Shown here: positions 33,379 through 53,648 of the stretch, piece after piece
Position numbering within the stretch: position 1 is the first letter of the stretch
How the letters are laid out: each line of letters opens with the position of its first letter
Source: Escherichia virus TH29
Reading direction: 5' to 3' (one strand)
Sequence record: MT446403.1
Length of the DNA: 53,648 nucleotides
The notes under the pieces: model-generated
Told to the model about the DNA's origin: nothing
The model's input: only the letters and a program-made list of their open reading frames with translations
Database searches by the model: none
Made by a program: the position numbers and the translations under genes

Positions 33379-34443
33379 TTATAAAGAGTTGAAGCGTTCT
33401 AAACGACGTTTGTTAGCTTCTTCGGAAATAGAAACTTTAGGCTTGCGAGCTTCTGAATCTTTCTTAGCAGTGAATTGCATAGATTGGTTCAGGGCATCAC
33501 CCAAAGTAATGGAATCACAATCTTCAAGTGCTGCATCGAAACGAGCGGAGATGTAATCTTCACTCTTATCGCTGAAATCCTTGTCATGCAATTTATTAAC
33601 TACAGCCAACTTAACTTCCGAATCGGACTTGCCGGAGAAATCAAGACTGGAGAACTCGTCGCCAAGACGGGCCACATCAATGAGAAGTGCTGTACGAGCA
33701 ACAACACGTTTGTCTACCTCAGCCTGAATGGCTTCATCGGATAGTCGTGCAGTTTCTGCATCAGCAAGTTTCTGCTCAAGGGTGCTAATCTTGTCAAGCG
33801 CCGCATCACGCTCTGCTTCAACAACATCAAAGGTTGCCTTATCGACAATGGAAATCTCTTCACCAGAGTCACCAATGCGAGTAGTCTGAGCACGACCACG
33901 AACAACAATTGCAGCATGGTTAGGGATAATACGAACTTTGTCGAAGTCTGCATCGGCATCTTCTGCAACAGCCAGTTCTGCATTATGGCCCAGGGAGATT
34001 TGGTCAACACCAGAATCAACTAATCGGATAGCTTGCTCGTCATTCAAAACGATTGATGCAGCCAAGAAAGAACCGTCTGCAATTGGACGACCTTCGATGA
34101 ACCCTTTCTGGAGTTCTTTGTTGTTCTTGATATTGACGTCATCTTTTGGATGACCGATAGTAACCGGAATTGAACGACAACCTTCAATGGTTGCCTCATC
34201 AAATAATACTTCCGGCTTGGTGCGAACACGGCAAATAGATTCTGGGTCTAGATGTTTTGCAATCTCACCAAGTTCTTTCGCTTTGTACAGCATAATGCCA
34301 GTACGAGCAATGGTGCATTCTGCAATCATTTCGCCAGAGTCGCGTAAACGACGGGTCGTCAGAGTGGCCTTGTCGGTTAACAAAACTACTTCATTCACGG
34401 TATCTTCGTCGTTAAGCTGAACCAGGTTTTGGCTTTGCTTCAC
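33379..34443 (-). CDS. Head morphogenesis protein (putative prohead protease/scaffold)
   Basis: ORF 33379-34617 overlaps the portal gene, so the real start is internal (GTG at 34441-34443 or ATG at 34327-34329); C-terminal half is coiled-coil-like. Confidence 0.4.
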   Translation of the reverse strand: MKQSQNLVQLNDEDTVNEVVLLTDKATLTTRRLRDSGEMIAECTIARTGIMLYKAKELGEIAKHLDPESICRVRTKPEVLFDEATIEGCRSIPVTIGHPKDDVNIKNNKELQKGFIEGRPIADGSFLAASIVLNDEQAIRLVDSGVDQISLGHNAELAVAEDADADFDKVRIIPNHAAIVVRGRAQTTRIGDSGEEISIVDKATFDVVEAERDAALDKISTLEQKLADAETARLSDEAIQAEVDKRVVARTALLIDVARLGDEFSSLDFSGKSDSEVKLAVVNKLHDKDFSDKSEDYISARFDAALEDCDSITLGDALNQSMQFTAKKDSEARKPKVSISEEANKRRLERFNSL

Positions 34444-47349: not shown

Positions 47350-48000
47350 TTATTCCTGATTGGTCAGAGCCTTCCAGCAAATTGGGAATAGTTCTGACAT
47401 AATTTTATTCACTTCTTCCGCAAACAAGCGAACTTCATACTGCGCATGTTCGGAGGAACGTTGATTATACATGGATGCCCAGCCATAAAGAGAGCCAGTC
47501 CAAACCCATTCAGTCATCATGGATTGTGGCAACACCATGCGAGCTTGCTCTGGAGCAATCCCCAAACCAATTAACGTTTCATATTCTGCAATGCAAGCCT
47601 TGTTATGGCTTTCCATGCGATAATGAATATCGTCAGCAAAATCTTGTGGCAACGATTGTGCAGTCTGAGTCATCAACTTCTCAGGACGACCGAGTACAAC
47701 ATCTGGTACAAAGCATTCAATCGAGATTGCTTCACCATCTTTGTAACGACGGCTAACTTCATTCCAGCTAAAGCCAGTTTGGTGTTTGCCAAGCTGACGT
47801 GCAATGAAGAGTGGAGCTTTGCAACGCAGGGTTACTTGTGCATGACGGAATGGCGTAATGTGCTTATGCTTTGCAAGAAACTCAATCAGCTTCTCGTCAC
47901 GTAAAGATATTTCATGCGACTCTGCACCATAAGAAACTCGTGCAGCATTAACAGTTGTAAGGTCGCTGCCCATGTGGTCAACGAGTGTGGCAGTAATCAT
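47350..48000 (-). CDS. ThyX-like flavin-dependent thymidylate synthase homologue with divergent active-site motif
   Basis: 216 aa; AARVSYG, KAPLFIARQ and the overall pattern match ThyX, but the RHR(x7)S signature reads KHQTGFSWNEVS. Confidence 0.65.
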   Translation of the reverse strand: MITATLVDHMGSDLTTVNAARVSYGAESHEISLRDEKLIEFLAKHKHITPFRHAQVTLRCKAPLFIARQLGKHQTGFSWNEVSRRYKDGEAISIECFVPDVVLGRPEKLMTQTAQSLPQDFADDIHYRMESHNKACIAEYETLIGLGIAPEQARMVLPQSMMTEWVWTGSLYGWASMYNQRSSEHAQYEVRLFAEEVNKIMSELFPICWKALTNQE

Positions 48001-48056
48001 TTGCTCTCCGGTTCATATGGTGGGAGATTAATTAGCTCCGCACCATAACAATGGTA

Positions 48057-48278
48057 TTATTTTAATGACGCCTGTAGCGACGCATTTAGTACAGAACGCT
48101 TTTCATATTCGCGCTGGTTGTACGTGTTTGTCAGTGCTTCCGCAGCTTCTATTGACAAGATTGCAAAACCACCAAAGGCATTGCGAACTTCTTCAATATC
48201 CATGTGCAGGACTTCACTTGTAATTTGGCTGGCTATTACAGCCTTGTAAATCTCTTCGGCAATTTCAGCAGTTTTCAT
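48057..48278 (-). CDS. Hypothetical small acidic protein
   Basis: 73-aa ORF. Confidence 0.45.
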   Translation of the reverse strand: MKTAEIAEEIYKAVIASQITSEVLHMDIEEVRNAFGGFAILSIEAAEALTNTYNQREYEKRSVLNASLQASLK

Positions 48279-49131
48279 GTTTCTCTCCAGTTAAATTTAA
48301 GTAAGTGCCCTGACGTGGACTATTACGAACATGACAATATATTGGCTTAAATGATGTTTCCACTGCGGCCAAGACACTTATTAAATTTGATTCGAACCGC
48401 CCAAGTGAATCAGCCTTGTTTATGGGGACCATCGGGGAAAAGTATAAACCCGCTTAATACCTATGTCAGATATTAAGAACCCTGGCTTGCATATTTCATG
48501 TGAATAGGAACATAGTCTGGATTTTGAATCCAGCTAACTTCGAGAAGAGGAGTAGCTCAAACGAAAGCCTGAACTTTCTTTCGACACATCACAATCAGCG
48601 CAACTGAGCCGTATCGCTACGGTATGCCAGACGCTAACTTGAGCCTTTTGAACAGAGGCATAACTGTTTGGAAAGTGGTGGATTCGGTGAACTCCGCGTT
48701 CACAATTACACAGTCGGCCTCGGATGCTACATCCCTATCCCATCGTGCAGGTTTCATTAACTCTACGAATCCATTGAATTTGGTGACCAGTACGTTGGTC
48801 AGACGCTGTGGCCTTTACGCGGCCAACGTGCCATTAATGCTGGCAAGACAGAGCTAACGTTCTCAAGCACTTTTGTCTAGGTCTGTTCCCGGCCACTGTT
48901 CTAGGAAGTGACTACCTGAATTTCACGCATTCAATACGGGGCTTCCGTCCTCGGAGGCAGCAATTTCAATTGTTATGCCCAGAGCAATTTGCAGGAATTA
49001 CACCTGCCATACTACAAGTAGCTAGAGTCTCGTTATTTAAAGTCGCACACTCCCTCGACTATAGTATACGTGTATTTAAAGTCCCGTACCGGACTGCCAA
49101 ATGAAATGCGATGGCGAGCATTTTGTTCAAC

Positions 49132-49341
49132 TCACTGTCGGGTAAGTTTCGAACACTTTTGTGACCACGTTTCATTGTGGACTAAAATCTGGGTTTTGGT
49201 TTCGCGTGATAAAACTTTCACTTCTGCAACATCCAAATAGATTGGTTGTGCAATCAAGCAATAATCACTTACGAACCCACTTTGAGAGCAACTCACTATC
49301 GACATTGCTATCAGAACTGCTAGACACTTCTTTCTGAACAT
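49132..49341 (-). CDS. Putative small lipoprotein overlapping the upstream membrane-protein gene
   Basis: Internal start MFRKKCLAVLIAMSIVSC has a basic n-region, hydrophobic core and lipobox-like IVSC; weak RBS. Confidence 0.3.
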   Translation of the reverse strand: MFRKKCLAVLIAMSIVSCSQSGFVSDYCLIAQPIYLDVAEVKVLSRETKTQILVHNETWSQKCSKLTRQ

Positions 49342-49501
49342 GCGATTTAATCTCGATAGATTCCTTAATAGAATCGAATTGCTTCTCTTTGGCTTCCTGA
49401 CGCTCCTCGGCTTTGCCTGAGCTTCTGCCTTTGAGGAACACTGCAAAGAGAATTCCCAATGCAGTCAAGACGCCAAGAAATATTGCCTTAAGCTGTTGCA
49501 T
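49265..49501 (-). CDS. Small membrane protein with N-terminal TM helix and charged C-terminal region
   Basis: 78 aa; TM segment AIFLGVLTALGILFAVFL; ATG at 49499-49501 with GGTGA RBS. Confidence 0.5.
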   Translation of the reverse strand: MQQLKAIFLGVLTALGILFAVFLKGRSSGKAEERQEAKEKQFDSIKESIEIKSHVQKEVSSSSDSNVDSELLSKWVRK

Positions 49502-49509
49502 GAATCACC

Positions 49510-49650
49510 TTAGATGGCACACGCACCACTTGAGCAGTCGTTATCACCAGCACCAGGGACGATTGCTTCTTCGTCCTGCTTCTTCTTGAGTTCTTCAATT
49601 GCTTCTTCGGCAGCACCGAAGTCTAAGTTATCAAGTGCATCAAAATCCAT
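49510..49650 (-). CDS. Small acidic protein (46 aa, absent from the ORF track)
   Basis: Hand translation MDFDALDNLDFGAAEEAIEELKKKQDEEAIVPGAGDNDCSSGACAI; GGAG 7 nt upstream of the ATG. Confidence 0.35.
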   Translation of the reverse strand: MDFDALDNLDFGAAEEAIEELKKKQDEEAIVPGAGDNDCSSGACAI

Positions 49651-49674
49651 GAGGACTCCATGTTTGTTGTTGAG

Positions 49675-49769
49675 GGTGGACGAGGTTGGGTTCGAACCAA
49701 CGACACATCTGTTCGACAGATTGCTCTACCTGACTAAGCTCTGGAGCAGACCTTCTGAGCTACTCGTCC
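49675..49769 (-). ncRNA. tRNA-like element (possible pseudo-tRNA or non-canonical tRNA, anticodon region CGA)
   Basis: Minus strand has a perfect 7-bp acceptor-like stem (GGACGAG/CUCGUCC), T-arm GUUGG-UUCGAAC-CCAAC, D-arm-like GCUU-AGUCAGGUA-GAGC and a 4-5 bp anticodon-like stem with loop GUCGAAC, but about 21 extra nt 5' of the D-arm. Confidence 0.3.
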
Positions 49770-50569
49770 AAAATTGGGTGGGTTTTGGTAACGCAGGTTT
49801 TCCCGAACTGCGAGGCTTGTAGAATCTGTGAGTCGCCTACTGTGTTTTGACATAACATGGGATTGATGGTCCCGACTCACTTCATCTCAGGTACGAGGCA
49901 CTACTTTGCGAGTGCAAGCAGGTGTTGAACCCAAGTACCAACAGGCAACCTAATTTATTCCACCGTTGTGGAAACCATTGGTTAGAGCAGTTTATTTCCA
50001 TGCTCCGGGCAATTCACTTTAAATGAATTAAGTTTGTACTCTGTCACATCCCTACGCGCACTGAGGGACTTAAGTCTGCATTACATCGCAGAATACAAAT
50101 TAATTAATGCTCCGATTTATTAATCACATCTCGAAGCCACAATGCGCCAAATTTGGTTACGTGGGGTTGGAAGACCACGGAGAGAACTTAAATTTAATTA
50201 AGCTGCAACTCGCATTTCAGAATCATTTGCATTTATTTTAAATGAATAAAACAGTCGCAATAACTCCAGGCAGTTTAGGCCCGTCGTAAGACTCAGAAAA
50301 CTACTTCAATTTGCACACAACAAATTTCCCAACATTGCCTTCCGTCGAAGGCTCATGCAATGGTGTTTGAATTATGTACAAATTGAAGCAACTTCAATGA
50401 ACACTCTTGTCTGGGCCACGAGCTTGGGCATCGACCTACCTCCCAACTCTAATCACAAGAATGCTCATTGAAGCCCACTCACTCTGGAATGGGTTCAAGG
50501 CAGCACCGGACAACTTCCAGTGCATGCCAGATCGATTTAGCTTAGCTTCTCAAGTTTGCTCTTGGCAAC

Positions 50570-50908
50570 TTAGAATACCGGAGCTTCTTCTACAGCAGCT
50601 TCTGCTACTGCAACAGCGGCTTCTTCTTCGACCTTAACTTCTTTCACGGTGTCGAACACAGTGCGTTCAACTTCCGGACAACCAGCTTCAACCCACGGCA
50701 GGTAGAATGCCAGGAATGCAGCAGCGGTGTTGGTCTGCATTGAGCGAGAACGGTCAATCAGTTTGTTGGTGTTTGCGAACGCTTCAACAGCAGCTTCAAT
50801 TTTAGCGCCGTTTTCCAGTTTAAAATCGTGTGCGTTACACTCAGCTTCGCTCAGGAACAGGGAACCATCGTTAGCTTCGTACTGAGTTACGGTTACAATC
50901 TTAGCCAT
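50570..50908 (-). CDS. Hypothetical early protein with acidic Ala/Glu-rich C-terminus
   Basis: ORF 50570-50995; likely start MAKIVTVTQ at 50908; motif copy about 80 bp upstream. Confidence 0.5.
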   Translation of the reverse strand: MAKIVTVTQYEANDGSLFLSEAECNAHDFKLENGAKIEAAVEAFANTNKLIDRSRSMQTNTAAAFLAFYLPWVEAGCPEVERTVFDTVKEVKVEEEAAVAVAEAAVEEAPVF

Positions 50909-50985
50909 TTGTATATACCTTATATTAAATAGTTTTGCACGCCACGGTGACGTGACTGTAGATAGATTAAAGAGCCTTTCTCTTT

Positions 50986-51002
50986 TCACATCCAATTAAT
51001 GT
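50986..51002 (-). promoter_or_regulatory. Conserved motif copy tcacatCCAAtTAATGT
   Basis: One mismatch to the core; upstream of gene 50570-50908. Confidence 0.45.
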
Positions 51003-51031
51003 GTCAGGACTGCTCTGATTTAACAAACAAC

Positions 51032-51706
51032 TCAATACATATTGAATCGTTCGATTGTTTTGATTACCAAATCCTTTGTCTCAGCGACAGTGAGTTCAGT
51101 GATGATTGATTCGTCATAACCCTCAATCTGGATTGCTACAAAACGCCCAACTCCTGTTACGGTAAGTCGGTTAGTTCTGTCACGAACAACTACACCAGCT
51201 TCTTGCGCGACTGCTCGCAACAATTTCCAGCGTAAAGTTCGGTTTGGTACAGCAAAGCCCTTTGTCAAGAACAACTCTTTCATGAGTTCCCCAAGGCAAA
51301 CAGCTTCAATGTTTTGTCCTCTTCCAACTAATTCTTGCAACAGGCACAACGTCAACATTTCTAAATTGTTGAAGTGACCAGCGCGCTCCAAGTTAAAGAA
51401 CTCTGGAGGAACAGTCGAACGAGATTTAACAGCTTGCTTATATGCACGTTCTTCTTCCTGTGCAGCAAGCATCAGCATCTCTGGCTTAATGTACTTCATA
51501 GCAGAGAAGCCAGCGCGGGTGGCTTTAATTATGCGACAAGCCTCTTTCATCTTGTAGCGTTGCCACTCACCGCGCTTCGATTCTGGATTAAAATGGACCC
51601 ACATAATGATGACATCTTCCTTGGCAAGATAGACGGCATCATTATCATTGAGCCATTGCTTGCACGTTGATAGTGCAATCTCTTTGTCATCATCATGATA
51701 AGACAT
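51032..51706 (-). CDS. Hypothetical early protein
   Basis: ORF 51032-51763; likely start MSYHDDDK at 51706. Confidence 0.5.
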   Translation of the reverse strand: MSYHDDDKEIALSTCKQWLNDNDAVYLAKEDVIIMWVHFNPESKRGEWQRYKMKEACRIIKATRAGFSAMKYIKPEMLMLAAQEEERAYKQAVKSRSTVPPEFFNLERAGHFNNLEMLTLCLLQELVGRGQNIEAVCLGELMKELFLTKGFAVPNRTLRWKLLRAVAQEAGVVVRDRTNRLTVTGVGRFVAIQIEGYDESIITELTVAETKDLVIKTIERFNMY

Positions 51707-51707
51707 T

Positions 51708-52085
51708 TTAGTGGCCTTGTAGGATACGTTTGTTCGCAGTTTCTGCGTCGATTCCCAAATCAACTAATGTAACCAAGCACTGTGAAATCCGCTCTTGCGC
51801 AGCTTTCTCCAGAATTTGGTATTTTTCGTCGTTAACGCCTAACACATTCTTGGCATGAATGAGTGTAGCCATTAGGCCATGCCCCAAAGCAACTGCTTGC
51901 ATTGCCTGGAGTTCAAAGTTGATTGTGATACCAGCGAGTTCATGCTCTTTCTGGATAATCTCAATCAACTCTTCTTTCGATTTGTCTTGTAAGTTCAAAA
52001 TGGAACTCCGTACATTGGCTGGTCTGTTGTCCAGCTGTAAATGAAAGATTTGGACAGAAGATGCTCGACTGGCTTGCCGAAGCAA
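51708..52085 (-). CDS. Hypothetical early protein
   Basis: 125-aa ORF; N-terminal extent uncertain because it overlaps the upstream ORF. Confidence 0.45.
   Translation of the reverse strand: MLRQASRASSVQIFHLQLDNRPANVRSSILNLQDKSKEELIEIIQKEHELAGITINFELQAMQAVALGHGLMATLIHAKNVLGVNDEKYQILEKAAQERISQCLVTLVDLGIDAETANKRILQGH
51755..51770 (-). promoter_or_regulatory. Conserved motif copy ccaaatCAACTAATGT (variant)
   Basis: About 55 bp upstream of the MSYHDDDK start, inside the 3' end of the upstream gene. Confidence 0.35.
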
Positions 52086-52285
52086 TATTCCATGAAGGAT
52101 GGGTTGTAGGTTGCATTGTTTAACAATTCTTTAATCGAATACTTATTCATAAAGAATGCAAACTTTGAGTCGCTTCCTTCCCAACCAAATATATAAAACT
52201 TTCCACCCAAGAAAGCAAATGCTTCCATCTCTCCTGTGTGAATATTACGGGCCTTAATGACCCGGATAGAATGTTTGCGAATCAT
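51995..52285 (-). CDS. Hypothetical protein, first gene after the right-hand non-coding region
   Basis: 96-aa ORF; ATG at 52283-52285 with GGAGAG RBS. Confidence 0.5.
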   Translation of the reverse strand: MIRKHSIRVIKARNIHTGEMEAFAFLGGKFYIFGWEGSDSKFAFFMNKYSIKELLNNATYNPSFMEYCFGKPVEHLLSKSFIYSWTTDQPMYGVPF

Positions 52286-52923
52286 AGGAACTCTCCAATT
52301 TTCGATTCGATGTTTGTGACGCTTCTCTCATCTTTTGGCCTTGTGGAAACAGCCACAGGGTAGCGCAGGAAGCCCGATTTCCGGGCCGTAGCCTACCGTT
52401 TGTGTCAATTCTGGATAACTGCATTGGCGAAGGGTTACTCCCGTTAGGGTGCGATACGCTAATCACATGAGTGTCGTCGCCTTACGGCTCAGGCGTGTCA
52501 CAGAGGCTTTGCAACCCTTCCCAATACATTCACCCAAATACCAGCTTTGGCGTAGCTGGTGGCTCTGTTTTGTGCGGATTATGCCACTCTAAGCCCTGTT
52601 TGTCCGACTTCCTCGGAGCACCAGCGGCTTGTGGCACAAACCTATTTTAGAATGACTAACATAAGCATGAGGCATAACCCTCTAATTATTCAGCCCTAAC
52701 AGCTTGCTTATTCAGTACCAATTCAACCCAATACATACACAACTATATACAATAGCGAACTATCTGCGAAAACTATCCGGCCCTATGGCCTAAGTTAAAG
52801 TTAATAGTGTGTGATGGAAACATTCCATCGAAAATAACTTTGCAGAATGAGTCGAACATTCTCACACGTCTAGCGGCCGCAACGGTCTACCGAGTTACAA
52901 AGTTATTATCTGATGTTGTTTCT

Positions 52924-53648
52924 TCAATTCCAACTAATGTCGAATACTCTTCTTGCAAACAGGACAAGTGATGAATCTGTATGCAAAGTATCCTCGGTCA
53001 TTCTTTCCTGTGTACATCTTTAAGTCAGAGAACACGTAAGATATTGCAGAGAAACATACCCACACTGGCGTGTGAATGTTACGTTATCCTTTTCCAAAAC
53101 TTTTATCATTTCAATTCCAACTAATGTTTCAGAATTATTCCAATATTCCAAACAAAAAGAATAATAAGAATAAATTAAAAATAAATGAAGAAAGTTCTTG
53201 ACACCCATTTGGCGATAGGTGTATAATGCCTTTCTTCCCTAAGAGGTCAGAATCAAATCCCACTAATGTTTCAGACGAAGTGCCGAAGGCGAATCCTCTC
53301 CCAAACCCGCTTGGAACAAGATGCCTCCGGCCTGGAACTATACTGCTTTCCAATCTGAATCAAACAGTTCCTTTGGTCTTGAATAAATTATCGAATTAAT
53401 TCCCAAGAAAGTGTGATTTCCATACTTCTTAACTTCCTGGTAAGCAAATCCATCTACCCAATTACCGCAGTGGGTTTTAATCTTTGTAGCAAACAGAATT
53501 CGGTAGTAGTGACCACGTGGCTGGTGGAAGAGAATATCTTCTGGCTTGATTGAGTTGATATTTAAATCAGACATTTAAGAACAATACCCCTTCGGAGAAG
53601 ATGTAGTCACTGCCGTAATCTTTGGTGATTGCATCCCAATCAATATAT
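52924..53648. repeat. Right copy of direct terminal repeat (identical to 1-725)
   Basis: Exact repeat of the left end, including the three motif copies, the sigma70 promoter (53198-53227) and the 78-aa ORF (53338-53574). Confidence 0.9.

What the first reader, a model, noticed from the sequence alone, without database searches (positions are those of the whole stretch)
49830..50560. Second long non-coding stretch in the early region, with local repeats
About 730 bp between gene 50570-50908 and the tRNA-like element has no credible coding-strand ORF. It contains an 8-bp inverted repeat enclosing 37 nt (GTGAGTCG...CGACTCAC, about 49839-49891), duplicated ttaaatgaat(t/a)aa elements (about 50020 and 50238) and a degenerate CCAACTCTAAT copy near 50441. 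Together with the other two stretches, roughly 2.2 kb of early-region DNA is non-coding.
Basis: seen in the sequence. Interest (0 to 1): 0.5.

Follow-up and report, generated by a model that had tools for sequence, protein, structure and literature searches.

The report
Phage tmRNA-like tag RNA, anti-host tmRNA
The "empty" 730 bp is a cluster of structured RNA genes whose centrepiece copies the message part of the bacterial ribosome-rescue RNA (tmRNA), encodes its own degradation-tag peptide, lacks the tRNA part, and carries two arms antisense to the host's own tmRNA, which suggests that many phages block or rewrite host ribosome rescue.

Summary
On the coding (minus) strand, 50304-50109 encodes a ~195-nt RNA with every hallmark of the mRNA-like half of tmRNA:
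- a resume context (AUAAAU|GCA);
- a 10-codon tag frame (ANDSEMRVAA*);
- a helix holding the stop codon;
- a covarying pseudoknot;
- a terminal hairpin.

The same element sits unannotated in about 800 phage genomes of unrelated groups: Chaseviridae, Felix O1-like, Ackermannviridae, G7C-like, T5-like, lambdoid prophages and P1-like plasmids. The tag is conserved as a peptide: third codon positions vary twice as much as the first two.

No tRNA-like acceptor domain accompanies it. ARAGORN and Rfam do not call it, and most members have no start codon for the frame.

Its 5' region carries two conserved arms antisense to host tmRNA nt 81-93 and 99-107, which cover the host resume codon and first tag codons.

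Best model (inferred, not shown): the RNA docks on host tmRNA, masks the host tag template and offers its own.

Around it lie long helices that look like processing sites, a helix-plus-pseudoknot module and a degenerate tRNA-Arg. I found no prior description. Identity as a conserved tag-template RNA family is well supported. The mechanism is a hypothesis.

The parts
50396..50469 (-). Helix-plus-pseudoknot module. Closing helix 50469-50455 / 50410-50396. Inner stem UUGGG 50446-50442 / CCCAA 50428-50424. Conserved loop AGGUAGGUCGAUG 50441-50429, whose GGUC can pair with UGGCCCAG 50418-50411.
   Evidence: Fold. The module is 95-99% identical across the genus, more than its flanks. The same motif with compensating stems (GUGGA/UCCAC, GCGGG/CCCGU) occurs in Bas96 and Fifi44, read directly. 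In 4HA13 it sits on the other side of the tag RNA.
50297..50395 (-). Long, almost perfect 25-bp hairpin with an apical stem-loop (GCCUUC-GACG-GAAGGC). It is a likely RNase III-type processing site. Its 3' strand contains arm 1.
   Evidence: MFE -43.8 kcal/mol, z = -7.6, 0 of 200 shuffles as good. 50296-50385 is about 81% identical to an unannotated segment in Felix O1-like phages, with compensatory changes in the apical stem (read).
50296..50304 (-). Arm 1: GUAGUUUUC, antisense to E. coli ssrA nt 99-107 (tag codons GAA AAC UAC).
   Evidence: The equivalent 8-11 nt complement to ssrA 96-107 is present in 35 of 36 family members. Shuffled sequences give a complement of 10 nt or more in 2% of cases.
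50248..50260 (-). Arm 2: UUGCGACUGUUUU, antisense to E. coli ssrA nt 81-93 (AAAAUAGUC|GCAA, spanning the resume codon), with one G-U pair.
   Evidence: This window ranks 5th of 26,814 20-nt windows of the genome for duplex energy with ssrA 77-112.
50198..50236 (-). Resume context AUAAAU (50236-50231); tag frame GCA AAU GAU UCU GAA AUG CGA GUU GCA GCU (50230-50201) = ANDSEMRVAA; stop UAA (50200-50198).
   Evidence: Weak Rfam tmRNA-family matches fall exactly here (alpha_tmRNA E = 0.0013; tmRNA_permuted).
50185..50204 (-). Helix-5-like hairpin AGCUUAA/UUAAGUU that holds the stop codon.
   Evidence: Read. The equivalent helix in the other subfamily covaries (helix 1: 96% paired, 3 of 4 pairs with changes on both sides).
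50147..50179 (-). H-type pseudoknot. S1 is CGUGG 50179-50175 / CCACG 50164-50160. S2 is CCAA 50170-50167 / UUGG 50150-50147.
   Evidence: S1 is 98% paired with 3 covarying pairs. S2 is 96% paired and all 4 pairs change on both sides. Controls with the partner slid by 1-3 columns give 28-47% paired.
50109..50138 (-). Terminal hairpin GGCUUCGA / UCGGAGC with the conserved 15-nt loop GAUGUGAUUAAUAAA.
   Evidence: Alignment: the loop is conserved while the stems differ (GCCCUGA/UCAGGGC, GCCCAC/GUGGGC, and others). In SA91KD it is annotated as a terminator.
50028..50103 (-). Long imperfect helix (about 15 bp) directly after the tag RNA, a putative 3' processing site. Its distal end coincides with an insertion hot spot at 50026-50035.
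   Evidence: Fold (z = -0.4, so weak on energy alone).
49781..50027 (-). Function unknown.
   Evidence: z = -1.8 and +1.0. There is no match outside Chaseviridae.
49675..49769 (-). Degenerate 95-nt tRNA-Arg-like element. It has a 7-bp acceptor stem (A3:U70), an insert of about 21 nt in the D region, a 5-nt anticodon loop, a good T arm and an ACC end.
   Evidence: The homologue in phiEcoM-GJ1 is annotated 'tRNA-Arg, may contain an intron'. It is 71% similar to a true tRNA-Arg that follows the tag RNA in Klebsiella phage VLCpiS13b.

Best explanation
The stretch is transcribed on the minus strand as a multi-module RNA precursor. Long helices flanking the modules probably act as processing sites. 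The central product (about 50304-50109) belongs to a large, so far unannotated family of phage RNAs derived from the mRNA-like domain of tmRNA. It has a resume-codon context, a 10-codon tag frame under peptide-level selection, a helix holding the stop codon, a pseudoknot and a terminal hairpin. It has no tRNA-like domain.

Its 5' part carries two arms antisense to the single-stranded resume region of the host's own tmRNA (nt ~80-93 and ~96-107).

Proposed mechanism (inferred): the phage RNA docks on host tmRNA through these arms. This masks the host resume codon and first tag codons. The host tRNA-like domain with SmpB then delivers rescued ribosomes to the phage-encoded frame, which starts 14-18 nt beyond the duplex in the window's subfamily. 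Stalled proteins would receive the phage tag (here AANDSEMRVAA) instead of AANDENYALAA.

Shown: the family, its structure, the coding-type conservation, the lack of a tRNA-like domain in cis, and the complementarity. Inferred: processing, pairing in vivo, decoding by trans-translation, and any benefit to the phage.
For: (1) Tag frames in unrelated phages are conserved as peptides. Examples are ANDSEMRVAA, ANDSEVLMAA, ANEEVYLAVA, ANDNVFLAVA, ANDDVVLMAA, ANDNQYLAVA and ANDDLMMVAA. Across 26 distinct sequences, mean entropy by codon position is 0.57 / 0.54 / 1.11.

(2) The upstream context AUAAAU|GCA is invariant. ARAGORN reports the same resume consensus in true permuted phage tmRNAs. Weak Rfam matches to tmRNA families fall on the tag in every locus tested.

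(3) Structure test on 28 sequences: 93% of cells paired against 28-47% in slid controls, covariation score 0.51 against 0.06-0.13, and 11 of 16 pairs changed on both sides.

(4) Canonical initiation is unlikely. In 28 of 36 members an in-frame stop lies 6-10 codons upstream of the resume codon with no start codon between.

(5) There is no tRNA-like domain in cis. ARAGORN finds no tmRNA in any family locus. Lambdoid loci of 4.6-10 kb have no tRNA or tmRNA gene at all. In VLCpiS13b, 6947 and Omen a sigma-70 promoter sits immediately upstream of the 5' motif.

(6) Antisense arms: 8-11 nt Watson-Crick complements to ssrA 96-107 in 35 of 36 members. A second arm pairs with ssrA 80-94. The linker between the arms varies from 1 to about 35 nt in length and in sequence. 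Differences in Fifi44 are mostly transitions that keep G-U pairs. The arms match the host context (AGUC|GCA, GAC GAA AAC UAC) and not the phage's own (AAAU|GCA, different codons 4-6).

(7) The target sequence is nearly invariant across Enterobacterales.

(8) Synthetic anti-tmRNA oligonucleotides complementary to tmRNA suppress release of the nascent protein from stalled ribosomes in vitro (PMC3384345).

(9) Distribution: 805 phage records and 656 of 5,426 complete E. coli genomes, mostly on P1-like plasmids.
Against: There is no experimental evidence for the RNA, its ends, its pairing with tmRNA or its decoding.

The arms are conserved by common descent, so the many members are not independent tests. 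Similar duplex energies with the ssrA target occur by chance elsewhere in this genome, for example at 34337-34356.

Host-matched covariation of the arms could not be shown. Most hosts share the same target. Row-capped scans for Salmonella-, Proteus- and Pasteurellaceae-type arms found none. Salmonella phages keep the E. coli-type arm although Salmonella ssrA, as I recall it, differs by one base.

A ribosome has never been shown to resume on a template that is only base-paired to tmRNA at this site.

Part of the tag frame lies in a helix, so some third-position variation could reflect structure rather than coding.

In the VLCpiS13b-type subfamily GUUU may instead pair inside the RNA with AAAC.
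Confidence: 0.5

Rival explanations
1. Pure anti-tmRNA antisense RNA. The arms pair with host tmRNA and simply switch off tagging and rescue, like the laboratory anti-ssrA oligonucleotide. The tag-like frame is an evolutionary leftover or a structural scaffold and is never decoded.
For: Arm complementarity. Anti-tmRNA oligonucleotides are known to work in vitro. No tRNA-like domain is present.
Against: A leftover would not keep a fixed 10-codon length, an invariant resume context, a stop codon in a helix-5-like helix, synonymous codon turnover (AAC/AAU, GAU/GAC, CUG/UUG, all four GCN) and tmRNA-like C-termini across at least seven phage groups.
Confidence: 0.22
2. A complete, autonomous phage tmRNA whose tRNA-like domain I failed to recognise, for example the downstream tRNA-Arg-like element or a separately encoded acceptor piece.
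For: A tRNA or tRNA-like gene often lies within 80-350 nt downstream, as in the window, VLCpiS13b, Felix O1 and P1-like plasmids. The Felix O1 element has G3:U70 and an encoded ACCA end (read; Rfam tRNA 31.7 bits). True permuted tmRNAs do exist in viral contigs.
Against: The neighbouring tRNAs differ between phages (Arg, Leu, Asn, none). Lambdoid copies have none. The window's element has A3:U70 and would be cut away from the tag RNA by RNase P (established knowledge of tRNA processing). Only one other T-arm-plus-acceptor-like element exists in the whole window, a degenerate one near 52.8 kb.
Confidence: 0.1
3. Decaying relic of captured tmRNA and tRNA sequence, or plain regulatory spacer (promoters, terminators, recombination junk) with no RNA function.
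For: The region is mosaic and a hot spot for insertions of Imm and HNH genes. The adjacent tRNA is degenerate. SA91KD annotators called two terminators here.
Against: The core is retained in about 800 phage genomes of unrelated families, with compensatory base changes and peptide-level conservation. The promoter scan finds nothing unusual on the minus strand.
Confidence: 0.05
4. One or more conventional small protein genes, as several database records annotate.
For: GJ1 gp30, Mangalitsa_033/035, SA91KD_35 and the phanotate calls in Ecp_YSF. The 39-aa ORF at 49882-50001 is intact in 5 of 7 genomes.
Against: The annotated ORFs break frame between close relatives. Amino-acid identity (82-85%) is lower than nucleotide identity (~90%) for the 39-aa ORF. 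The alternative AUG frame overlapping the tag is not conserved (read).
Confidence: 0.04

Closest known systems
Bacterial tmRNA (SsrA, Rfam RF00023), mRNA-like domain
   Same: Resume codon GCA preceded by an A/U-rich context with U at -5 and A at -4. A 10-codon tag beginning AND and ending in hydrophobic-A-x-A, the same length as E. coli ANDENYALAA. The stop codon sits in a helix-5-like helix and is followed by a pseudoknot.
   Different: It has no acceptor stem, no T arm, no CCA end and no long P2 helix closing the domain. It is about 195 nt rather than about 360 nt. It carries 5' arms antisense to the host tmRNA. ARAGORN and Rfam thresholds do not detect it.
Two-piece (circularly permuted) tmRNA of alpha-proteobacteria and cyanobacteria, also found here in IMG/VR viral contigs
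   Same: The coding function sits on a separate RNA piece that must be joined by base pairing to the piece carrying the CCA end. The resume consensus is identical (AAUAAAUGCAAACGA).
   Different: In true two-piece tmRNA the coding piece supplies the 5' acceptor strand and both pieces come from one gene. Here no acceptor piece is encoded, and the pairing surface is the host tmRNA's own reading frame.
Mycobacteriophage DS6A tmRNA fragment, TLD only (Hudson et al. 2014, PMC4131195)
   Same: A phage carries only half of a tmRNA and is suspected of interfering with host trans-translation.
   Different: It is the mirror image. DS6A keeps the tRNA-like domain and lacks the message. This family keeps the message and lacks the tRNA-like domain.
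Synthetic anti-ssrA / anti-tmRNA oligonucleotide used in ribosome display and cell-free translation (PMC3384345; the classical oligonucleotide sequence is from my memory)
   Same: Complementary to the same single-stranded stretch of tmRNA (resume codon and tag codons). Its known effect is to suppress release of the nascent protein from stalled ribosomes.
   Different: It is man-made DNA and a continuous antisense. The phage RNA is bipartite and is fused to a replacement tag template.
Prophage-encoded anti-sRNAs and Hfq sRNAs of the lambdoid late-leader region (PasA/C/D, STnc100; bioRxiv 10.64898/2026.05.13.724894)
   Same: Same hyperplastic neighbourhoods, between Q/tR' and the holin gene and in tRNA clusters. 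STnc100-like matches lie near the element in IME250 and a P1-like plasmid.
   Different: Those are about 80-nt Hfq-type sRNAs with poly-U terminators. None is reported to resemble or target tmRNA, and 'tmRNA' does not occur in that paper.

Membership tests
tmRNA (one-piece, RF00023 / ARAGORN definition) | tRNA-like domain: 7-bp acceptor stem with G3:U70, T arm and 3' (A)CCA, formed by the two ends of the same RNA | tested here: not met
   ARAGORN finds no tmRNA in the window or in any family locus. The T-arm and acceptor scan of the window finds only the tRNA-Arg-like element (A3:U70) and one degenerate element at about 52.8 kb.
tmRNA (one-piece, RF00023 / ARAGORN definition) | Score at or above the curated threshold of a tmRNA covariance model | tested here: not met
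   No match at gathering thresholds. The best matches are alpha_tmRNA at 19.5 bits (threshold 50) and tmRNA_permuted at 20.9 bits (threshold 47).
tmRNA (one-piece, RF00023 / ARAGORN definition) | Resume codon context and a short tag frame ending in a hydrophobic A-A type C-terminus, conserved as a peptide | tested here: met
   AUAAAU|GCA is invariant. There are 26 distinct 10-codon frames of the form AN[DE]xxx[LR]x[AV]A, and third-position entropy is twice that of positions 1 and 2.
tmRNA (one-piece, RF00023 / ARAGORN definition) | Stop codon in helix 5, followed by pseudoknot(s) | tested here: met
   Covariation supports the helix and an H-type pseudoknot.
Two-piece permuted tmRNA (RF01849, RF01850, RF01851, RF04321) | An acceptor piece (T arm plus 3' acceptor strand plus CCA) encoded upstream of a coding piece that begins with the 5' acceptor strand (GGGG...) and the D-loop analogue | tested here: not met
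   ARAGORN finds such genes in other viral contigs of the same scan but in none of the family loci. In VLCpiS13b, 6947 and Omen a promoter abuts the 5' motif, leaving no room for an acceptor piece or acceptor strand.
Trans-acting antisense RNA against a host RNA | Conserved, accessible complementarity to a defined target site, retained while neighbouring sequence drifts | tested here: met
   Two arms complementary to ssrA about 80-94 and 96-107 in 35 of 36 members, with a variable linker. The target is conserved across Enterobacterales.
Trans-acting antisense RNA against a host RNA | Compensatory change of the arm where the host target differs | tested here: inconclusive
   Pattern scans for arms matched to Salmonella-, Proteus- and Pasteurellaceae-type tags were capped at 120 rows and returned no family member.
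Trans-acting antisense RNA against a host RNA | Physical pairing with the target in vivo | not testable with these tools
   This needs RIL-seq, CLASH, psoralen crosslinking or affinity purification.
tRNA (for the flanking 49675-49769 element) | Cloverleaf with a 7-nt anticodon loop, detected by ARAGORN or at the Rfam threshold | tested here: not met
   ARAGORN is negative. Rfam tRNA gives 24.1 bits against a threshold of 29, with a shortened anticodon loop. The D region holds an insert of about 21 nt (read).

The most novel reading that the evidence does not exclude
A widespread class of phage RNAs acts as a detachable replacement message for the host's tmRNA. It base-pairs to the host tmRNA's resume region, silences the host tag and makes the host tRNA-like domain with SmpB deliver stalled ribosomes to a phage-specified tag. 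This would be a natural hybrid (host plus virus) two-piece tmRNA. It would let phages as different as P1, lambdoid prophages, T5-like, Felix O1-like and Vi1-like phages reprogram the fate of rescued proteins and possibly of non-stop mRNAs.
Probability: 0.35. Interest if true: 0.93.

Novelty: new variant of a known kind. Interest (0 to 1): 0.85.

Why it matters
tmRNA is one of the best-studied bacterial RNAs. An exhaustive 2014 census found ssrA in phages only among mycobacteriophages and Bacillus phage G. Here a tmRNA-derived RNA appears in about 1.6% of sequenced phage genomes, including model phages and prophages of pathogenic E. coli. It has been missed because finders require the tRNA-like domain.

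If the antisense-plus-replacement model holds, it would be the first case of a virus rewriting the host's ribosome-rescue tag. It would also show that a message can be supplied to tmRNA in trans, and it would give a natural tool for programmable tagging.

Even the minimal reading, a natural anti-ssrA RNA, would be a new phage counter-measure aimed at host translation quality control.

Practically, hundreds of spurious 'hypothetical protein' calls in these gaps could be replaced by an RNA gene annotation, and an Rfam family could be built from alignment A1.

Tried and rejected
- Rfam at gathering thresholds on the window found nothing.
- ARAGORN found no tRNA or tmRNA in the window.
- The sigma-70 promoter and terminator scan was not different from shuffles.
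- RNAduplex of whole phage cores against whole ssrA gave uninformative full-length duplexes no better than shuffles. I replaced it with exact-complement and short-window scans.
- I looked for a tRNA-like domain in several places: an upstream permuted arrangement, the 3' CCACCA-like end of the VLCpiS13b/6947/PE007 RNAs, T-arm-like hairpins inside lambdoid flanking helices, and the neighbouring tRNAs. None is conserved across the family.
- I first drew a PK1-type pseudoknot (GUUU/AAAC plus UUUGCGG/CCACAAA). A simple extended hairpin explains the same bases, and the window subfamily lacks it, so I left it unresolved.
- Host-matched arm variants for Salmonella, Proteus and Pasteurellaceae: scans were capped and came back empty, so this is inconclusive.
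- Seven literature searches covered phage tmRNA, tmRNA-like, tmRNA mimic, anti-tmRNA and prophage sRNAs. None described this element. The P1 genome paper was not available.
- The other non-coding stretch (52250-53350) has no cross-family modules, and Rfam finds nothing more in 47900-53648.
Full report
**Context**

The window is a complete or near-complete genome of a Carltongylesvirus-like phage (Chaseviridae), 86-96% identical in this region to phages such as Mangalitsa, ST32, phiEcoM-GJ1 and PYps16N. All large ORFs lie on the minus strand. The finding therefore has to be read right to left: gene 50908-50570, then the 730-bp stretch, then the tRNA-like element. In annotated relatives the genes just beyond the tRNA-like element include an Rz-like spanin, so the label 'early region' is unverified.

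**Checking the observation**

There is no credible coding-strand ORF. Minus-strand ORFs in the stretch are 26-48 aa. ORFs annotated here in other records (GJ1 gp30, Mangalitsa_033/035, SA91KD_35, the phanotate calls in Ecp_YSF) break frame or are truncated among genomes that are about 90% identical.

- The 8-bp inverted repeat is real but lies at 49828-49835 / 49873-49880. It is what chance would give. One search lists eleven inverted repeats of 8 nt or more here, and that segment folds no better than shuffles.
- The duplicated TTAAATGAAT(T/A)AA is real (50019-50031 and 50238-50250; 0.37 expected).
- CCAACTCTAAT is exact at 50443-50453 and is not enriched in the window.

**What is really there**

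A permissive Rfam scan gave weak matches to two tmRNA families on the minus strand (alpha_tmRNA E = 0.0013; tmRNA_permuted). Both were driven by one short stretch. Read directly, that stretch is AUAAAU GCA AAU GAU UCU GAA AUG CGA GUU GCA GCU UAA, which translates to ANDSEMRVAA*. This is strikingly like the E. coli SsrA tag ANDENYALAA.

blastn showed that exactly this part of the 'non-coding' stretch (50117-50258) is conserved in Erwinia Loessnervirus phages, an Ackermannviridae phage and a Klebsiella siphovirus. The neighbouring 50296-50385 is conserved in Felix O1-like phages. In all of them the segment is unannotated.

Fetching those loci showed the same frame with different codons and related peptides:
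- ANDSEVLMAA (PH4)
- ANEEVYLAVA (VLCpiS13b)
- ANDNVFLAVA (Felix O1)
- ANDDVVLMAA (6947, PE007)
- ANDNTFLAVA (IME250)
- ANEEAYLMVA (Bas96)
- ANDNQYLAVA (a T5-like Klebsiella phage)
- ANDDLMMVAA (a P1-like plasmid)
- ANDAQFLAVA (Erwinia phage Omen)

Across 26 distinct sequences the context AUAAAU is invariant. The frame was 10 codons in every member I kept; I filtered on that length, and nearly all family members met it. The last codon is always Ala, using several synonymous codons. Mean entropy at codon positions 1, 2 and 3 is 0.57, 0.54 and 1.11. That is the signature of a decoded frame.

In 28 of 36 members an in-frame stop lies 6-10 codons upstream with no start codon in between. Ordinary initiation therefore cannot explain it.

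**Structure**

Downstream of the frame, an alignment of 28 diverse members (A1) supports three elements: a helix that holds the stop codon, an H-type pseudoknot, and a terminal hairpin with a conserved 15-nt loop.

In the formal test:
- 93% of cells pair, against 28-47% when the partners are slid.
- 11 of 16 pairs change on both sides.
- All four pairs of the second pseudoknot stem covary, for example CCAA/UUGG, CCGA/UCGG and CCAG/CUGG.

A covariance model built from A1 finds one copy in the window, at 50240-50137. This sequence was part of the model.

**Distribution**

A 510-nt query from the Klebsiella phage hit 805 phage records, nearly all over the core and nearly all annotated 'none'. A core query hit 656 of 5,426 complete E. 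coli genomes: 150 chromosomal places and 554 on plasmids of about 90-100 kb. One of these plasmids, when fetched, carried the element between the dam-type methylase gene and tRNA-Asn/Thr, the arrangement I recall for phage P1.

In IMG/VR the element lies in lambdoid prophages, between what I take from the sequences (from memory of phage lambda) to be the late terminator and the holin gene.

No Rfam family covers it in any of these contexts.

**No tRNA-like domain**

ARAGORN calls no tmRNA in any family locus. In the same batch of viral contigs it does genuine tmRNAs, mostly permuted, which share the resume consensus AAUAAAUGCAAACGA.

Neighbouring tRNAs differ from phage to phage, and lambdoid copies have none. 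In three phages a sigma-70 promoter sits a few bases upstream of the conserved 5' motif. Elsewhere, a long helix ends there. In the window this is a 25-bp hairpin with z = -7.6.

The functional unit is therefore a roughly 175-200-nt RNA that begins at (U)AGUUUUCG and ends after the terminal hairpin. The 2014 census of tmRNA found ssrA only in mycobacteriophages and Bacillus phage G, which is consistent with this family escaping detection.

**The antisense arms**

The conserved 5' motif is the reverse complement of the host tmRNA's tag codons. Exact complements of 8-11 nt to E. coli ssrA nt 96-107 occur in 35 of 36 members (ssrA sequence). A second conserved segment, GCGACU extended to GCGACUGUUUU in the window's subfamily, is complementary to ssrA about 80-94, the stretch that contains the resume codon.

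In the window the arms are GUAGUUUUC (50304-50296, pairing with ssrA 99-107) and UUGCGACUGUUUU (50260-50248, pairing with ssrA 81-93).

Four further observations bear on whether the pairing is selected:
- The linker between the arms varies from 1 to about 35 nt.
- Substitutions in Fifi44 and Omen are largely transitions that keep G-U pairs.
- The arms match the host context (AGUC|GCA; GAC GAA AAC UAC) rather than the phage's own (AAAU|GCA; different codons).
- The target is nearly invariant across Enterobacterales.

In the window's subfamily the phage resume codon follows the second arm by 14-18 nt. By my recollection, the host's resume codon lies a similar distance, about 11 nt, beyond PK1.

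Oligonucleotides complementary to tmRNA are used to suppress release of the nascent protein from stalled ribosomes in vitro. From memory, the classical ribosome-display oligonucleotide is complementary to this same region.

As a control, a genome-wide scan ranks the second arm 5th of 26,814 windows for duplex energy with ssrA 77-112. A few coding-region windows score as well by chance.

**Model**

The evidence fits an RNA that docks on the host tmRNA, masks the host template and supplies its own, with the host tRNA-like domain and SmpB serving in trans.

The steps shown are the family, its structure, the peptide-level selection, the absence of a tRNA-like domain in cis, and the complementarity. 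The steps inferred are processing at the flanking helices, pairing in vivo, resumption on the phage frame, and the benefit to the phage. I can only guess at the benefit. The phage tags keep the AAND...aromatic part and change the C-terminal LAA to VAA, AVA or MAA. From memory of ClpX and SspB determinants, that could alter proteolysis.

The main rival is a pure anti-tmRNA inhibitor.

**The rest of the stretch**

Upstream lies a helix-plus-pseudoknot module (50469-50396). It is 95-99% conserved in the genus. It is also present with compensating stems in Bas96, and it sits on the other side of the tag RNA in Fifi44 and 4HA13.

Downstream lie a long helix (50103-50028) and genus-specific sequence of unknown function.

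Relatives carry insertions exactly at the module boundaries: an Imm gene in Mangalitsa and HNH endonucleases in Pel53 and 4HA13. The whole 706-nt transcript folds with z = -5.6.

**Limits**

I could not test host-matched covariation of the arms. The scans were capped and came back empty. Salmonella phages keep the E. coli-type arm. Literature searches found nothing on this element, but the searchable library is incomplete.

**Verdict**

The stretch encodes a conserved, apparently undescribed tmRNA-derived RNA with antisense arms against host tmRNA. My confidence in its identity as a functional, decoded tag-template RNA family is about 0.9. My confidence in the docking-and-replacement mechanism is about 0.35-0.5.

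Noticed in passing
window 49675-49769 (minus strand): Degenerate tRNA-Arg-like element of 95 nt. It has a perfect 7-bp acceptor stem (A3:U70), an insert of about 21 nt in the D region, a 5-nt anticodon loop, a canonical T arm and an ACC end. ARAGORN misses it, and it scores below the Rfam tRNA threshold. The homologue in phiEcoM-GJ1 is annotated 'tRNA-Arg, may contain an intron', while other records call a 71-nt tRNA-Arg at a shifted position.
   Followed up: partly
window about 52815-52890 (minus strand): A second tRNA-sized element in another 'non-coding' stretch, with a good T arm (GAAUG-UUCGACU-CAUUC) and a matching 7-nt acceptor strand (CUUUGUA / UGCAAAG). Neither ARAGORN nor Rfam detects it.
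   Followed up: no
window 50026-50035, 50307-50313, 50379-50391, 50457-50467: Recombination breakpoints shared among relatives. A superinfection-immunity (Imm) gene, HNH homing endonucleases and other short inserts sit exactly at the boundaries of the RNA modules. The 20-nt direct repeat (50012-50031 / 50231-50250) coincides with one breakpoint and with the point where Pel53 diverges upstream of the resume codon.
   Followed up: partly
L010 1-212 (Serratia phage IME250); L134 81-201 (P1-like plasmid): Matches just below threshold to the Rfam sRNA STnc100 (43.4 and 37.8 bits against a threshold of 47) lie a few hundred bases from the tag RNA, in tRNA regions of an Ackermannviridae phage and a P1-like plasmid. 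A 2026 preprint links STnc100 to the PasD prophage sRNAs.
   Followed up: no
IMG/VR loci L019, L023, L051, L061, L067, L087 and others: ARAGORN finds genuine circularly permuted (two-piece) tmRNA genes in viral contigs. They carry 10-residue tags (ANDERFLMAA, ANDNAFLMAA, ANDEVFALAA, ANESVYRLAA) and the same resume consensus as the family lacking the tRNA-like domain. They are possible evolutionary sources of the family.
   Followed up: partly
L041, L049, L081, L082, L131 (lambdoid prophage contigs): The tag RNA is bracketed by repeated long hairpins of the type CACAACAGGUAAGAGCA...UGCUCUUUCCGUUGUG. Some have a T-arm-like GGGUUCGAAUCCC inside the loop. As far as I remember, the same hairpin is in the late leader of phage lambda itself, without the tag RNA.
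   Followed up: no
window 50116-50130 (loop of the terminal hairpin): The conserved loop GAUGUGAUUAAUAAA contains UUAAUAA, identical to the stop-codon loop of E. coli ssrA helix 5. It also contains UGAUUAA, complementary to ssrA 237-243. In members with a different hairpin (Bas96, L118), a CCUGAUUA complementary to ssrA 237-244 appears in the pseudoknot instead.
   Followed up: no
window 34337-34356 (minus strand): ACCCGUCGUUUACGCGACUC inside a structural-region gene gives the best duplex energy in the genome (-20 kcal/mol) with the ssrA resume region. This is probably chance, but it shows the background level for such matches.
   Followed up: no
L003 (PP952070.1, 'Staphylococcus phage Pel53'): This record is 96% identical to the window across the region and belongs to an E. 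coli/Yersinia phage genus. The Staphylococcus hyicus host label looks doubtful.
   Followed up: no
window 50230-50201 compared with Yersinia ssrA (L143, L164, L210): The window's tag starts ANDS and its resume context is AAUAAAU. This is closer to the Yersinia tmRNA (AAUAAUU|GCA AAC GAC UCG..., ANDSQYESAALAA) than to the E. coli one. Several close relatives of this phage infect Yersinia pseudotuberculosis, whose tmRNA would not pair well with arm 1.
   Followed up: no
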